Below, one piece after another: positions 5,673-59,690 of a DNA stretch of 64,000 bases (position 1 is the stretch's first letter; the number at the start of each line of letters is the position of its first letter). The notes under the pieces were generated by a model. That model was not told the DNA's origin. It made no database searches and was given only the letters and a program-made list of their open reading frames with translations. Position numbers and translations under genes: made by a program. This DNA is from Dictyostelium discoideum (lineage: Eukaryota): assembly GCA_000004695.1 (NCBI GenBank), contig CM000151.3, positions 4,416,001-4,480,000 on the forward strand. Direction: 5' to 3'.

Positions 5673-6739
5673 TTAAAAAAATAATTTTTTTAATTTTGAA
5701 AGTAATCCATTATTTTGACTTTGATTTTCATTAGTTTCATTTAATTTTGAAAGTATTCTTAATTCTTGTTTTGATAAAGATTTTCCATTTAATAATGTTA
5801 TTGAAAAATCGTTATTACCATTATTATCTATAGATAATAAGTTGAATAAAAATCTGTAGAATAAAGTTTGATTTGGATTTAAATCTATAGCTTTTAATAT
5901 TAAATCTTTTTGAGATATATTTTTATTATTACCTAAAGTGATTAGTTCATTTGGTTTCATTATAATTGCAAGATTATAATAAGTTGAATCATAATTTGGT
6001 TCTAATTCTAATAATTTAATATATAAATCCTTTTTATTTACATTTTTACCACCAACTAAAATTGATTCATCAGGTTTTAAAGATACTGCTAAATTATAAT
6101 ATGCTTCAACATTATTATTATCCAATTCAATAGCTTTACAATATAATTGTTTTTTATTTAATTTTCTACCATCTAATAAAGTTATTATAATTTCACCTTG
6201 TTGTTGTTGTTGTTCTGATTTTTGTTGTTGTTGTTTTGATAATAATAAATTTGCTAAATTATTAAATGAATAAGAAGTACTCTTTAAATTTGGATTAACA
6301 TCAATTGATTTTAAATATAGTTCAATATCAGTCATTGTTTTACCATTTAATAAAGTTATAGAATTCTCAACTGATGTATCTAATTGTTCAGCTAAATTAA
6401 AATAAGAATTTGAAGTATTTGGTTGAAGATCAATCGATTTCAAATATAATTGTCTTCTATTCATTTTTGTACCATCCGATAGAGTAACCACTTCATTTGA
6501 ACTATTTAATTGATTTGCTAAATTATGATATGGTTTTGAAAATTTTGGATCAATTTCAATCGATTTCAAATATAATTGTTTTCTTGTCATAATTGTACCA
6601 TCTAATAATTTAATTGATTTCTCATTATTCAACAAATTACCTAAATTATTATACGCTATTGAATGATTTGGATTTAAATCAATTGATCTTAAATATAAAT
6701 CTTTTTTATTTAATTTTTCACCATTTAATAATTCAATTA

Positions 6740-34014: not shown

Positions 34015-34295
34015 TTAGTGAATAAATTATTTTTAATTATTATTTTTAATTATTTTCCATACTTTTTTAAATCAAAATCGCCCCAATCCATATTATCTGA
34101 AGTACTTGACGTTGTTAATGTTTCTATTGTTGAAACTATTTTAGGTGAATACATTGAAATGTCATATGTTATACCATTTACGGTATCTGCATAATTAATG
34201 TAATACCATCTGGTTGCCATACCTGCAACCAATAGACATATCGATATAAATACCAATACTAATGTTGCTATTTTTAATTTTCCAATTTCTGCCAT
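33564..34295 (-). CDS. Small 4-TM membrane protein, paralogue X. 2 exons: 34295..34063 and 33969..33564 (about 212 aa)
   Basis: ATG is at 34295 (MAEIGKLKIATLVLVFISICLLVAGMATRWYY...). The donor is AA|GTATGG at 34062 and the 93-nt intron ends tattatAG at 33971/33970. Exon 2 is in frame and gives ...TRNIFNTGLAFSAFAFMIGFFIIII... IARFMVIGMLICTFISVCVMAG ... CVKTCDSKW ... KFGPGTGWILVIISLFVEITATICVVLSF. There are four hydrophobic helices, and the second loop carries a CxxxC motif. Confidence 0.55.
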
Positions 34296-34297
34296 TC

Positions 34298-34331
<34 letters not shown>

Positions 34332-34591
34332 TTTTTTTTCTTTCAATAAAAAAATTATATAAATAATAATAATATAGAAATAATAATAATAATAATAATA
34401 ACTAAATTTTAAATTGTATTTTAAATTTGGAATTGAAATGGAAAAAAATAAAAAAATAAAAAAAAAACAAAAAAAAAATAAAAATAAAAAAAAAAAAAAA
34501 AAAAATAAAAATAAAAATATCATCCTCATATTTTAAAATAACTGATTTTCAAATAAAATTTTCTATCAACGCGATAAATTGGTTTATTTTT

Positions 34592-34625
<34 letters not shown>

Positions 34626-34726
34626 TTCCAAATTCTTTTTTTCTTTTTTTCTTTTTTATTTGAATTTTAATGGTCATATGACACAATGTTGTAAATATAA
34701 AAGTACATTTCTTGGTTTAAAAATTT

Positions 34727-34757
<31 letters not shown>

Positions 34758-34800
34758 CACCCAACACAAAAAAAAAAAAAAGAAAAAAAAAAATTTTATT

Positions 34801-34995
34801 TTAAATTCTCGGTATAAATGTAAATAAAAATACACAGGGTAATAAAAAAAGCTCTGATAGTAATGAACAACATGCGATAATGAAAGCTGGGCCAGGTCCA
34901 AATCCAGTTACACTATTATCGGTTTTTATTTCGCCACTCCATTTTTCATCACAACTATTATTACAATAATAAAATGAATTTGTAGAATTATTATT

Positions 34996-35026
<31 letters not shown>

Positions 35027-35578
35027 AAATTTTCTAAATCATTTTTAAAAGCTTTAGTAATTCCAGATAAAATTGAAGCTGATATTATTGTAAAAATAAA
35101 CATTAAAATAACAGCAATTCTACTAAATACAGGCATTCTTTTATTTCCATACATATGTTTTCTAAATTTAAAAAAATATGCAATTAATGATAAAATACCC
35201 AAAACAAATGCAATTATTGAAAATGCTAAACATGAATTAATTATTTTATGTGTACTTGATATTTATAAATAATTTAAAAATTAGTGTTAAAATTATTATT
35301 TATTATTATTTATTATTATTATTATTAATTTTTCAAAATTATTACCTTTTTAAATTAAAATCATTCCAATTTTTAGTGGTTTTAATATCATTATATGAAC
35401 TTGTTTGAACAATTTTTGTTGAATAAAATGTAAAATCTTCACTAATATCATACTTTATATTATAATAATTTACATAGTACCAGTTTGTAAAAAAGGTTGG
35501 AATAAGTGCACAACATGAGATGCAAATTAATATAAAACTTATAATATTACCCCAATTTTTGGGGCCGTAATACGTCAT
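34801..35578 (-). CDS. Small 4-TM membrane protein, paralogue Y (tandem duplicate of X). 2 exons: 35578..35346 and 35254..34801 (about 228 aa)
   Basis: ATG is at 35578 (MTYYGPKNWGNIISFILICISCCALIPTFFTNWYYVNYY...). Exon 1 is exactly 233 nt, as in X, and ends AG|GTAAT at 35345. The 91-nt intron ends atatcaAG at 35256/35255. Exon 2 (THKIINSCLAFSIIAFVLGIL ... CNNSCDEKW ... GFGPGPAFIIACCSLLSELFLLPCVFLF) is collinear with X, including the intron phase. Confidence 0.55.
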
Positions 35579-35946: not shown

Positions 35947-36200
35947 TTAATTGATAAATCCTTTTTTATTTTGCTTTTCAAATGGATTATCAAAACTTAT
36001 ATTATTTTCCAAAAGAGGTGAAATTGGCAGAGGTGTAATTGATATTAATTGTGGCGATGAATTTATACTACTATTATTACTACCATCAAATGATAGTTGA
36101 GGTGATGATGATGTTGATGTCGATGTTGATATATTTGGTGAATTATTATTATTATTACTATTATTTGTATTATTATCGATACTAATGATATTGTTATTAT

Positions 36201-36247
<47 letters not shown>

Positions 36248-36527
36248 GGTAATAAAGTTATTTCATTTGAAGTGCTTGTTGGTACTACAGCAGTTGGGCC
36301 GACTGGAATAGTAATTGAACCAACAATTGTTGGGAATTCTTTTGTTATGAAATCTCTTAATTGACCCTCAACTAATGTTGAAACAAATTTAGCAGCAGCT
36401 GGAAAATCATCAAAACTTGTAACTATATTAACCTTTTTTAATGGATCTTCTGTAAAAAATGCTTCGATTTTACCACCACCATTATTATTATTACTATTAT
36501 TACTATTATTACTATTATTATTATTAT

Positions 36528-36558
<31 letters not shown>

Positions 36559-36572
36559 TGCTGATCCTGCAA

Positions 36573-36617
<45 letters not shown>

Positions 36618-37161
36618 CATTATTTAAAATTGAAACTGACAAAACACCATCAAATTCAATATCTCTAATAGTTATACTTAATGGCACAATATGTGGATTT
36701 GCAGCTGACCCAAATTTAAGCCTTTTAATTAATTCTCTTTCTTGTTTAGATGATGTAATTGTTGTTGCCATATATATTGGATTTGCCTATATTGTTAAAA
36801 TTGAAAAAATAAAAAATAAATATAAAAAAAAAAAAAAAATACGAATTTTAGAATCTTCAATTGAATGAAGGGAATGAAAATAAAAATAAAAATAAAAACA
36901 TACTTGAACCATTGTTCTTAATTCTAATAAACCATTGCCATTATATTTTATTTTAAAAACGAATTTTAAACGATTGATTGATGGATCGACTTCTAATAAT
37001 TGAATATTTGGTGCAATATCACCTAAATGAATATTATGAACTAATAGTTTATCTGTAATGTTTGGAATTGGTGGTCCACTATTTAATGTTGTATTTAGTG
37101 ATGTTTTCAATGTTTCGTAAAACTTTTCATCAAAACCTCCCCAACTTAATTTAAATGACAT
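35947..37161 (-). CDS. mdm12: Mdm12-like SMP-domain protein (ERMES-complex subunit family). 2 exons: 37161..36904 and 36786..35947 (about 365 aa)
   Basis: The N-terminus MSFKLSWGGFDEKFYETLKTSLNTTLNSGPPIPNITDKLLVHNIHLGDIAPNIQLLEV follows the Mdm12 pattern MSF.lnW...F......LN........P..I..L.V....LG...P.I.L.E. Donor is CAA|GTATGT at 36903 and the 117-nt intron ends aacaatatAG at 36788/36787. Exon 2 is in frame (ANPIYMATTITSSKQERELIKRLKFG...) and carries low-complexity inserts: poly-Asn, and poly-Thr encoded by (TGT)n on the plus strand. Confidence 0.55.
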
Positions 37162-37166
37162 TTTCG

Positions 37167-37203
<37 letters not shown>

Positions 37204-37272
37204 TGATACAAGTTGTATTATTAATATTATTATTATTATATTATTATTAATGTTATTGAGTGCAAAATAGTG

Positions 37273-37311
37273 AATGGTGGCGATGGATGGTGGCGATGGA
37301 TGGTGGTGATT
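37273..37311. promoter_or_regulatory. GC-rich 13-bp tandem repeat (ATGGTGGCGATGG x2 plus a degenerate third copy) in the shared mdm12/grx5 upstream region
   Basis: This is the only GC-rich element in the roughly 640-bp AT-rich interval between the divergent ATGs at 37161 (minus) and 37801 (plus). Confidence 0.4.
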
Positions 37312-37800
37312 GAAATAATTTAATCTAAAATTTTTGTTGTGTTTTTGAATAAAAAAAAAAAAAATAAAAAAAAAAAAAATAAAATTTTTTTTTATTTTTT
37401 TTTTATTTTTTTTTTATTTTTTTTATTTTGGCGCAAGATAACAGGATAAACCTTTTTAAAAACTTTGAAGATTGACCTGCTAAAGTTTTTTTTTTTTTTT
37501 TTTTTCTATCAATTTATTTTATTATGTATTAAATTTTATTTTGTTTTTGTTTATTTTATTTTTTATTTTCATTTTTTATTTTTATTTTTTTTTTTTTTTA
37601 TTTTTTAAATTTTATTTATATCCAAAAAAAAAAAAATACAAATTAAACAGCAAATCATTTGTTTTGGAAAAAAAAAAAAAAACGATATTTTTTTTGAATT
37701 TTTTTCATTTTATTTTTTTTTTTTTTATTTTTTCATTTTATTTTATTTTTTTTTTTTAATTAATTAAATTTCGATTTCACACCCAATACATACACATAAA

Positions 37801-38676
<876 letters not shown>

Positions 38677-39451: not shown

Positions 39452-40594
<1,143 letters not shown>

Positions 40595-41215: not shown

Positions 41216-59690
<18,475 letters not shown>

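What the first reader, a model, noticed from the sequence alone, without database searches (positions are those of the whole stretch)
37162..37800. Divergently transcribed mitochondrial-function pair (Mdm12-like and Grx5) sharing about 640 bp that contains a GC-rich tandem repeat
The ATGs at 37161 (minus, Mdm12-like ERMES subunit) and 37801 (plus, monothiol glutaredoxin) face away from each other. The interval is almost pure A/T, except for ATGGTGGCGATGG x2.5 at 37273-37311. A compact bidirectional promoter would allow co-regulation of an ER-mitochondria tether component and a mitochondrial Fe-S assembly factor. The GC-rich direct repeat is the obvious candidate cis element.
Basis: partly seen in the sequence, partly recalled or inferred. 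Interest (0 to 1): 0.5.

Follow-up and report, generated by a model that had tools for sequence, protein, structure and literature searches.

The report
Ordinary spacer between mdm34 and grx5
This is a typical AT-rich Dictyostelium spacer between two back-to-back genes (the ERMES subunit Mdm34, not Mdm12, and mitochondrial glutaredoxin Grx5), and its GC-rich "repeat" is a recent expansion of one short motif found only in the AX4-type D. discoideum genomes, so it is unlikely to be a shared control element.

Summary
The two ATGs (37161 minus, 37801 plus) face away from each other. The spacer is 639 bp and 14.4% GC, and ATGGTGGCGATGG is tandemly repeated 2.8 times at 37274-37310.

The interpretation mostly fails:
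- **Gene identity.** The minus-strand gene is D. discoideum Mdm34/Mmm2 (DDB_G0274475, 365 aa), an ERMES SMP-domain subunit. Mdm12 is a separate 202-aa gene. Grx5 is confirmed, identical to Q555C8.
- **Spacer.** Its length and composition are average for this genome.
- **Adjacency.** The pairing exists only in group-4 Dictyostelium. Four other dictyostelid genera lack it. In D. firmibasis about 1.5 kb of extra sequence separates an mdm34-proximal conserved half from a grx5-proximal one.
- **Repeat.** It is a young expansion. Close relatives carry 1, about 1.5 or about 1.8 units of a founder 13-mer, ATGGTGGTGATTG. D. purpureum has none.
- **Better-conserved blocks.** TTGGCGCAAGATAA, for example, is better conserved than the repeat.
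- **Expression.** Published differential-expression lists never place the two genes together. In suspension starvation mdm34 is listed as up and grx5 as down.
- **Known elements.** The repeat does not match the GBF G-box rule and falls below G-quadruplex thresholds. No Rfam or tRNA hit was found.

Verdict: ordinary, low interest.

The parts
35947..37161 (-). mdm34 (Mmm2; DDB_G0274475). Exon 1 is 37161-36904, the intron is 36903-36787 (GTATGT...ATAG), and exon 2 is 36786-35947. The product is 365 aa: an SMP domain followed by a low-complexity tail.
   Evidence: Gene model. Its 1215-bp span and 365-aa product match the gene called in L007. Orthologues P0002 and P0006 are XP_003283400.1 and XP_004366511.1, which PMC4744386 lists as Mdm34/Mmm2; the same paper gives D. 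discoideum Mdm34 as XP_644144, 365 aa. Precomputed Pfam hit is PF26545 Mdm34_N. The SMP fold is supported by Foldseek hits to Mdm12, E 2.6e-8, TM 0.60.
37162..37800 (.). Intergenic spacer between the divergent genes: 639 bp, 14.4% GC.
   Evidence: Published genome-wide figures are about 700 bp for mean intergenic length and 13% GC for random intergenic DNA (PMC5295588).
37274..37299 (+). Two extra tandem units, ATGGTGGCGATGG x2. This is the lineage-specific expansion.
   Evidence: TRF. Both units are present only in the window and L007. L008 and L009 carry a single divergent unit (ATAGTGGCGATGG or ATAGTGGCGGTGG). L001 carries only a partial extra unit (ATGGTG), and L010, L011, L012, L013 and L002 have no extra unit with this sequence.
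37300..37345 (+). Founder unit ATGGTGGTGATTG (37300-37312) plus the adjoining conserved block AAATAATTTAATCTAAAATTTTTGTTGTGTTTT. It lies 139-184 bp upstream of the mdm34 ATG.
   Evidence: Conserved in all genomes of the D. discoideum complex. It is recognisable in D. firmibasis as GGTTTGGTGATTGTAATAATCTAAAA, and the 9-mer TGGTGATTG sits at a similar distance from the ATG there (143 vs 159).
37348..37429 (.). Central A-run (37348-37384) followed directly by T-runs (37385-37429). Each reads as an oligo-T tract on the sense strand of the gene it faces.
   Evidence: TRF rows and the sequence. Its role as a divide between two promoter halves is inference.
37428..37441 (+). TTGGCGCAAGATAA, the best-conserved GC-containing block of the spacer.
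   Evidence: GGCGCAAGATAA is invariant in 8 genomes. TTGGCGCAA is at 267 bp from the mdm34 ATG in AX4 and 266 bp in D. firmibasis. It is unique in the window.
37644..37716 (+). grx5-proximal conserved blocks: TAAACAGCAAATCATTTGTTTTGG, and ACGATATTTTTTTTGAATTTTTTTCATTTTATTTT.
   Evidence: Alignment. These blocks stay on the grx5 side of the extra sequence in D. firmibasis.
37758..37800 (+). Conserved block directly upstream of the grx5 ATG: AATTAATTAAATTTCGATTTCACACCCAATACATACACATAAA. It probably holds the grx5 start site and 5' UTR.
   Evidence: Alignment. It contains the only match in the AX4 spacer to the GBF heptamer rule (ACACCCA, minus-strand TGGGTGT). The assignment as start site or UTR is inference.
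37801..38676 (+). grx5 (DDB_G0274657; Q555C8). Exons are 37801-37803, 38002-38294 and 38541-38676. The product is 143 aa with a CGFS active site.
   Evidence: Pfam Glutaredoxin, E 5.5e-18; 100% identity to P0007; XP_644145.1, 'Monothiol glutaredoxin-5, mitochondrial'. The published gene span chr2:4453801-4454676 is 876 bp, the same as here.

Best explanation
The interval is an ordinary Dictyostelium discoideum intergenic spacer between two divergently oriented genes, mdm34 and grx5. Each gene has its own promoter-proximal conserved sequence. The GC-rich tandem repeat is a young expansion, probably by replication slippage or unequal exchange, of a single 13-bp motif (ATGGTGGTGATTG). It lies about 115-150 bp upstream of the mdm34 start codon, either in the proximal promoter or in the 5' UTR of mdm34. 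The extra copies are most likely neutral. If the founder motif does anything, it acts on mdm34 only, since it is 489 bp from the grx5 ATG. Shown here: the gene identities, the copy-number series across relatives, the split of the spacer into two conserved halves, the lack of conserved adjacency outside group 4, and the discordant expression classes. Inferred: the slippage mechanism, neutrality, and the position of the repeat relative to the mdm34 transcription start.
For: **Copy number varies among close relatives.** There is 1 unit in L010, about 1.5 in L001, about 1.8 in L008 and L009, about 1.7 divergent units in D. citrinum, and 2.8 only in the window and L007. The flanks are 88-93% identical across the complex and 80% in D. 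citrinum. D. purpureum shares no GC-containing 8-mer with the AX4 spacer.

**The spacer splits into two halves.** In D. firmibasis the spacer is 2046 bp. Positions 1-245 match window 37171-37399, and positions 1877-1914 match window 37645-37682.

**Adjacency is not ancient.** mdm34 has other neighbours in P. violaceum, A. subglobosum, T. lacteum and C. fasciculata, and tblastn finds no Grx5 within 6 kb of it there.

**The spacer is typical.** Its length and GC content equal the published genome-wide averages.

**Expression differs.** In PMC4403905 Additional file 7, mdm34 appears in filter_DOWN (late) and suspension_UP, while grx5 appears only in suspension_DOWN. grx5 mRNA falls with logFC -2.3, -2.0 and -1.3 at 4, 5 and 6 h (PMC6830349 Table S7).

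**No known element fits.** There are no Rfam or tRNA hits, no GBF heptamer in the repeat, and the G4Hunter maximum is 1.0.
Against: The founder unit and the block next to it are conserved out to D. firmibasis at a similar distance from the mdm34 ATG, so the core may be functional, and multiplying a site could change its strength. Neutrality was not tested. No transcription-start data could be obtained, so 'promoter versus 5' UTR' is open. The expression evidence comes from thresholded gene lists, not correlation coefficients. Adjacency is retained across all group-4 species examined, which is compatible with weak constraint as well as with general synteny.
Confidence: 0.75

Rival explanations
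1. One reading: the 639-bp spacer is a compact shared bidirectional promoter. The GC-rich direct repeat is the common cis element that co-regulates an ER-mitochondria tether subunit and a mitochondrial Fe-S assembly factor.
For: The genes are divergent with a short spacer. The pairing is kept in all group-4 genomes examined. There is a Dictyostelium precedent: pairs of G-rich sites between divergent sigN genes were proposed to serve both neighbours (PMC2257962).
Against: The tandem copies are specific to the AX4-type genomes, and the element is absent in D. purpureum although the pairing is kept there. The repeat is 113 bp from the mdm34 ATG but 490 bp from the grx5 ATG. D. firmibasis has about 1.5 kb between the two conserved halves. 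The genes are unlinked in four other genera. They never share a differential-expression list and go in opposite directions in suspension. [quoted passage not shown]
Confidence: 0.06
2. The G/T-rich motif is a real transcription-factor site, or a 5' UTR element, for mdm34 alone. Its multiplication in AX4-type D. discoideum has changed mdm34 expression.
For: The founder unit and adjoining block are conserved, and the distance to the mdm34 ATG is similar in D. firmibasis. The element stays on the mdm34 side of the extra sequence in D. firmibasis. The repeat is the only segment of the spacer above 45% GC.
Against: D. purpureum has no equivalent. The repeat in AX4 does not match the published GBF response element (T/G)G(T/G)G(T/G)G(T/G). 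The extra units carry a GC substitution (GGCGATGG) relative to the conserved founder, so they may not be equivalent sites. Conservation among species that are 80-93% identical in the spacer is weak evidence.
Confidence: 0.15
3. The G-rich repeat forms a non-B DNA structure (a two-tetrad G-quadruplex, with an i-motif on the mdm34 sense strand) that affects transcription or replication in an otherwise AT-rich region.
For: There are nine GG runs within 37 bp. It is the highest G4Hunter value in this spacer, and the value rises with copy number across relatives, from 0.64 to 1.0.
Against: The maximum G4Hunter score is 1.0, below the usual 1.2-1.5 thresholds (thresholds from my own knowledge). Only GG runs are present, with no GGG. 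ViennaRNA with G-quadruplex energies predicts an ordinary weak hairpin and no quadruplex.
Confidence: 0.03
4. The GC-containing islands mark an unannotated small RNA gene or a short ORF. The repeat reads ATG GTG GCG ATG GAT GGT GGC GAT GGA TGG TGG TGA, which is 11 codons.
For: The islands are flanked by T-runs, and an 11-codon ORF can be read in the repeat.
Against: No Rfam family matches at E up to 10 and there are no tRNAs. The mini-ORF is created by the expansion itself and is absent from relatives.
Confidence: 0.01

Closest known systems
Short tandem duplication or minisatellite that varies in copy number in AT-rich Dictyostelium intergenic DNA
   Same: Head-to-tail copies of a 13-bp unit. 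Copy number changes stepwise among very close relatives. The flanks are well conserved. The surrounding DNA is full of simple repeats.
   Different: The unit is unusually G-rich for this genome, and its founder copy is itself conserved, which most neutral simple repeats are not.
Paired G-rich GBF-type sites between divergent sigN genes of D. discoideum (PMC2257962)
   Same: G-rich repeated elements lie in the spacer of head-to-head genes, and were proposed to serve both neighbours.
   Different: The repeat here does not satisfy the GBF heptamer rule in AX4. It lies close to only one gene, is not conserved as a repeat, and the two genes are not co-regulated in the available lists.
Bidirectional promoters of functionally linked head-to-head gene pairs in other eukaryotes
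   Same: Divergent orientation, a spacer under 1 kb, and both products are linked to mitochondria.
   Different: The linkage is not conserved outside one taxon group. The spacer tolerates about 1.5 kb of extra sequence. No shared conserved element was found, and no co-expression is seen.
ERMES subunit Mdm34/Mmm2 and mitochondrial monothiol glutaredoxin Grx5
   Same: The flanking genes are the annotated D. discoideum orthologues.
   Different: Nothing new.

Membership tests
Shared bidirectional promoter of a co-regulated gene pair | Head-to-head orientation with a short spacer (under about 1 kb) | tested here: met
   The ATGs are at 37161 (minus) and 37801 (plus), 639 bp apart. This is also the average spacer length of the genome, so the feature does not discriminate.
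Shared bidirectional promoter of a co-regulated gene pair | Correlated expression of the two genes | tested here: not met
   In the PMC4403905 lists, mdm34 is in filter_DOWN (late) and suspension_UP, while grx5 is only in suspension_DOWN. grx5 mRNA falls about 4-fold by 4 h. These are thresholded lists only, so the test is coarse.
Shared bidirectional promoter of a co-regulated gene pair | Evolutionary retention of the pairing and of a compact spacer | tested here: not met
   The pairing is kept in group 4 only. It is absent in four other genera. The spacer is 2046 bp in D. firmibasis.
Shared bidirectional promoter of a co-regulated gene pair | A conserved cis element that acts in both directions | not testable with these tools
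   This needs a reporter assay. The sequence shows two separate conserved halves rather than one central shared block.
ERMES subunit Mdm12 | SMP (TULIP) lipid-transfer fold | tested here: met
   AlphaFold model with pLDDT 66.7. The top 18 Foldseek PDB hits are Mdm12, E 2.6e-8 to 2e-6, TM about 0.55-0.60, followed by TMEM24, Mmm1 and E-Syt2 SMP domains. The local Pfam MMM1 model is sub-threshold, 15.5 bits against a cutoff of 21.9.
ERMES subunit Mdm12 | Orthology to Mdm12 rather than to another SMP paralogue | tested here: not met
   D. discoideum Mdm12 is a different gene (XP_642257, 202 aa). The orthologues of the window protein are the entries listed as Mdm34/Mmm2. The profile hit to PDB Mdm12 covers only the first 61 residues, and no Mdm34 chain was among the sequence or fold hits in the PDB libraries.
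ERMES subunit Mdm34/Mmm2 | Match to the Mdm34 N-terminal family, and published orthologue assignment | tested here: met
   Precomputed PF26545 Mdm34_N is recorded for all six orthologues. P0002 is XP_003283400.1 and P0006 is XP_004366511.1, both listed as Mdm34/Mmm2, and D. discoideum Mdm34 is given as 365 aa in two exons, as in the window. mdm34 is DDB_G0274475.
Mitochondrial monothiol glutaredoxin (Grx5) | Single glutaredoxin domain with a CGFS active site | tested here: met
   Pfam Glutaredoxin, E 5.5e-18, residues 51-114. PECGFSN is present in the translation.
Mitochondrial monothiol glutaredoxin (Grx5) | Identity with the annotated Grx5, and a mitochondrial presequence | tested here: met
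   100% identical to XP_644145.1 / Q555C8, 'Monothiol glutaredoxin-5, mitochondrial'. The basic, serine-rich N-terminus ([27 protein letters not shown]) looks like a presequence, but targeting was not tested.
GBF (G-box binding factor) response element | Match to (T/G)G(T/G)G(T/G)G(T/G), usually in pairs | tested here: not met
   The rule is quoted in PMC2257962. There is no match inside the AX4 repeat on either strand. The only match in the spacer is ACACCCA at 37779-37785 near grx5. L008 and L009 do have a match in their single-copy version.
G-quadruplex-forming sequence | G4Hunter score of at least about 1.2, or four runs of three or more G | tested here: not met
   The maximum over 25 nt is 1.0, only GG runs are present, and the ViennaRNA minimum-energy structure has no quadruplex.
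Slippage-type tandem duplication (micro- or minisatellite) | Head-to-tail copies whose number differs among close relatives while the flanks stay conserved | tested here: met
   TRF. The series runs 1, about 1.5, about 1.8 and 2.8 units, with flanks 88-93% identical.
Known non-coding RNA gene | Match to an Rfam covariance model or a tRNA model | tested here: not met
   There are no Rfam matches at E up to 10 in 36700-38200 and no tRNA in the window.

The most novel reading that the evidence does not exclude
The conserved founder motif (ATGGTGGTGATTG plus its adjoining block), perhaps together with TTGGCGCAAGATAA, could be the binding site of a so-far-undescribed Dictyostelium factor that controls nuclear genes for mitochondrial proteins. 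Its triplication in AX4-type D. discoideum would then have retuned mdm34, and possibly grx5. My evidence makes this unlikely but cannot exclude it, because the rest of the genome could not be scanned and no transcription-start or quantitative expression data were available.
Probability: 0.05. Interest if true: 0.4.

Novelty: already known. Interest (0 to 1): 0.1.

Why it matters
It matters little. Both genes are already annotated in D. discoideum, and the spacer is typical of the genome. Two results are practical. First, the correct label for the minus-strand gene is Mdm34/Mmm2, not Mdm12. Second, GC-rich tandem repeats in Dictyostelium spacers should be checked against sibling genomes before being proposed as regulatory elements. 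Here the comparison shows that the repeat is a recent expansion, and that other short blocks (TTGGCGCAAGATAA and the grx5-proximal blocks) are better candidates for footprinting.

Tried and rejected
- **Rfam scan** (E up to 10) of 36700-38200 and a **tRNA scan** of the whole window found nothing.
- **Local Pfam scan** of the full and trimmed Mdm protein gave only a sub-threshold MMM1 hit, or none. The local library did not return the newer Mdm34_N or Mdm12 families, so I relied on precomputed hits and the literature.
- **phmmer of the full protein against PDB** returned only low-complexity matches.
I used the identical database entry P0007 instead.
- **The afdb50 fold library** was unavailable, so the PDB could not separate Mdm12 from Mdm34.
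- **The exact 365-aa AX4 Mdm34 sequence** is not in the protein collection.
- **Quantitative expression tables** were not usable. Parikh 2010, Katoh-Kurasawa 2021 and the mitochondrial compendium have no supplements held. The multi-omics paper holds neither gene. The count tables of PMC4403905 are cut before these genes.
- **A scan for GC islands in deep-AT context** was not informative, because the coding flank of mdm34 raised the background.
- **GBF G-box and G-quadruplex readings** were tested and not met.
- **An E2F or GATA reading of TTGGCGCAAGATAA** rests on memory of consensus sequences only. The rblA paper gave no motif to test against.
- **The 9-mer GGTGGCGAT inside the extra D. firmibasis sequence** lies in a small ORF and was judged a chance match.

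Full report
**What is in the sequence.** The window is extremely AT-rich (24% GC overall). It carries genes with Dictyostelium-style introns and simple repeats.

On the plus strand, an ATG at 37801 is followed immediately by a GT intron (37804-38001). Exon 2 is 38002-38294, a second intron is largely made up of an (ATT)n array, and exon 3 is 38541-38676. The 143-aa product has a Pfam Glutaredoxin domain (E 5.5e-18) and the CGFS motif. It is 100% identical to XP_644145.1 / Q555C8, 'Monothiol glutaredoxin-5, mitochondrial' of D. discoideum AX4. A published table places this gene (DDB_G0274657) at chr2:4453801-4454676, an 876-bp span equal to 37801-38676. The window is therefore AX4 chromosome 2, starting near 4,416,001.

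On the minus strand, an ATG at 37161 opens a two-exon gene (37161-36904 and 36786-35947) of 365 aa.

**The observation.** Tandem Repeats Finder gives 37274-37310, period 13, 2.8 copies, 95% matches. The third unit is a variant, ATGGTGGTGATTG (37300-37312). The spacer is 639 bp and 14.4% GC, while the repeat is 57% GC. GGTGGCGATGG with up to one mismatch occurs 4 times in 64 kb against 0.04 expected. The two exact copies are the repeat, and the two near matches lie inside long ORFs. One caveat is that the spacer has other GC-containing islands.

**Identity of the minus-strand gene.** The fold is nevertheless SMP. A profile of six dictyostelid orthologues hits only Mdm12 chains in the PDB, over the first 61 residues (E 3.5e-5). 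An AlphaFold model (pLDDT 66.7) matches Mdm12 crystal structures (E 2.6e-8, TM 0.60), then the TMEM24, Mmm1 and E-Syt2 SMP domains.

No Mdm34 chain was among the PDB sequence or fold hits, so these tests cannot tell the two paralogues apart. Three other lines do:
- The precomputed Pfam family for all orthologues is PF26545 Mdm34_N.
- The D. purpureum and C. fasciculata orthologues are XP_003283400.1 and XP_004366511.1, which PMC4744386 lists as Mdm34/Mmm2.
- That paper gives D. discoideum Mdm34 as XP_644144, 365 aa with two exons, and Mdm12 as a different protein of 202 aa.

XP_644144 is the accession directly before Grx5's XP_644145. PMC6025073 names mdm34 as DDB_G0274475. The gene is therefore Mdm34/Mmm2, an ERMES subunit but not Mdm12.

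**Is the spacer special?** No. The mean intergenic length in D. discoideum is about 700 bp, and random intergenic DNA is 13% GC (PMC5295588). Those authors also tested bidirectional promoter activity between lncRNAs and their diverging neighbours. [quoted passage not shown]

**Comparative evidence on the pairing.** I fetched the locus from 13 assemblies.
- grx5 and mdm34 are divergent neighbours in another D. discoideum assembly (L007), two D. discoideum-like genomes (L008, L009), two D. cf. discoideum (L001, L010), D. citrinum (L011, L012), D. firmibasis (L013) and D. purpureum (L002).
- They are not neighbours in P. violaceum, A. subglobosum, T. lacteum or C. fasciculata, and tblastn finds no Grx5 within 6 kb of mdm34 there.
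- In D. firmibasis the spacer is 2046 bp. Its first 245 bp match window 37171-37399, and positions 1877-1914 match window 37645-37682, with about 1.5 kb of unrelated sequence between.

The spacer therefore consists of an mdm34-proximal half and a grx5-proximal half that can be pulled apart.

**Comparative evidence on the repeat.** In alignments of the spacer the flanks are 93% (L008, L009), 91% (L001), 88% (L010) and 80% (D. citrinum) identical to the window. The repeat region reads as follows:

| Genome | Sequence | Units |
|---|---|---|
| L010 | ATGGTGGTGATTG | 1 |
| L001 | ATGGTG\|ATGGTGGTGATTG | about 1.5 |
| L009 | ATAGTGGCGATGG\|GTGGTGATTG | about 1.8 |
| D. citrinum | ATGGTAGTG\|ATGGTGGTTG | about 1.7 |
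| D. firmibasis | GGTTTGGTGATTG | divergent single copy |
| Window and L007 | ATGGTGGCGATGG\|ATGGTGGCGATGG\|ATGGTGGTGATTG | 2.8 |

D. purpureum shares no GC-containing 8-mer with the AX4 spacer at all. Only the founder and the block that follows it (AAATAATTTAATCTAAAA...) are conserved.

A better-conserved GC block is TTGGCGCAAGATAA (37428-37441). It is invariant across eight genomes, and it lies 267 bp from the mdm34 ATG in AX4 against 266 bp in D. firmibasis. Further conserved blocks lie near grx5 (37644-37667, 37681-37716, 37758-37800).

**Expression.** Full count tables were not available. In the differential-expression lists of PMC4403905 (Additional file 7, sheet boundaries), mdm34 appears once in filter_DOWN, in a late column (14-20 h), and once in suspension_UP (about 6-10 h). 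grx5 appears twice, both times in suspension_DOWN. PMC6830349 Table S7 gives grx5 mRNA logFC of -2.31, -1.98 and -1.28 at 4, 5 and 6 h, together with a drop in the protein. Many other mitochondrial genes fall alongside it. mdm34 is not in that table, but the table covers only proteins detected by proteomics. The two genes never share a list and move in opposite directions in suspension. This is coarse evidence, but it argues against tight co-regulation.

**Known element types.**
- *GBF.* The response element quoted in PMC2257962, (T/G)G(T/G)G(T/G)G(T/G), has no match in the AX4 repeat. The only match in the spacer is ACACCCA next to grx5.
- *G-quadruplex.* G4Hunter peaks at 1.0, and folding with G-quadruplex energies gives no quadruplex.
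- *RNA genes.* There is no Rfam or tRNA hit.
- *Motif elsewhere.* Near matches to the founder 13-mer elsewhere in the window exceed the shuffle expectation (24 against 1.9). They look like GGT/GAT codon repeats rather than a promoter motif, but only two positions were checked against long ORFs.

**Most likely mechanism.** The spacer holds two ordinary, separate promoters. On the mdm34 sense strand a long oligo-T tract (window 37348-37384) precedes the C-rich repeat. By the classical Dictyostelium promoter layout (TATA, then oligo-T, then the start site; from my own knowledge), this would put the repeat in the mdm34 5' UTR. This step is inference. The extra copies arose by slippage or unequal exchange and are probably neutral. 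I put this explanation at about 0.75. The mdm34-specific functional variant is at about 0.15 and the shared-promoter model at about 0.06.

**Novelty and score.** Both genes and their positions are already annotated, and the repeat is an ordinary young tandem duplication. Interest is 0.1.

Noticed in passing
window 37428-37441: TTGGCGCAAGATAA is the best-conserved GC-containing block of the spacer. It is invariant in eight genomes and sits 267 vs 266 bp from the mdm34 ATG in AX4 vs D. firmibasis. In AX4 it reads TTTTGGCGC, which resembles an E2F site, followed by an AGATAA (GATA) core. Both resemblances are from memory and were not tested.
   Followed up: partly
window 37464-37476 vs L001 about 5711-5723: The 13-bp segment TTTGAAGATTGAC appears as its reverse complement (GTCAATCTTCAAA) in one D. 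cf. discoideum genome, a micro-inversion within otherwise collinear sequence.
   Followed up: no
L013 1955-4000 (D. firmibasis spacer): About 1.5 kb of extra sequence lies between the mdm34-proximal and grx5-proximal halves. It contains an uncalled 76-aa acidic ORF on the minus strand (MNHNNDCKDGENGYTADDCENGDDDKEDNDQFQFTERYTDDLNDFVKISPPYCEIKEEEE...) and otherwise gives only low-complexity matches.
   Followed up: partly
window 37804-38001 and 38295-38540: grx5 has an intron directly after the ATG codon, containing (TAAA)10 and (TAA)20. Its second intron is largely made up of a 199-bp (ATT)64 array. Intron lengths differ among the sibling genomes (gene spans of 690-1002 bp).
   Followed up: no
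window 35947-36786 (mdm34 exon 2): The poly-N, poly-S and poly-T tracts of Mdm34 vary in length among close relatives (products of 331-414 aa), while the SMP core is nearly identical.
   Followed up: no
window 39464-40594: An intronless 376-aa actin gene lies downstream of grx5. The grx5-actin order is kept in the D. discoideum complex, D. citrinum and D. firmibasis. In D. purpureum an uncharacterised 495-aa gene lies between grx5 and two actin genes.
   Followed up: no
window 34050-35578, minus strand: Two adjacent small genes encode paralogous membrane proteins that share the motif WYY(I/V)NY...YDIS...S(P/T)KIV. They are called as genes of about 215-230 aa in the related assemblies, with no Pfam family.
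   Followed up: no
window 42478-59085, minus strand: A single 5535-aa ORF forms part of a gene whose product is called at about 6000 aa in the related assemblies, with no Pfam hit on record.
   Followed up: no
literature (PMC7554988, Table 1): The table lists domain positions 147-235 and 7-105 (TRX_PICOT) for DDB_G0274657 / XP_644145. These cannot fit this 143-aa single-domain protein. The row seems to mix Grx5 with a PICOT-type glutaredoxin.
   Followed up: no
PMC6830349 Table S7: grx5 falls in early starvation together with many nuclear genes for mitochondrial proteins (mrpl15, tsfm, gfm1, pitrm1, idhA, mcfF, lyrm4, lyrm7, PISD). A common starvation response of mitochondrial genes exists, but mdm34 is not listed with them.
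   Followed up: partly
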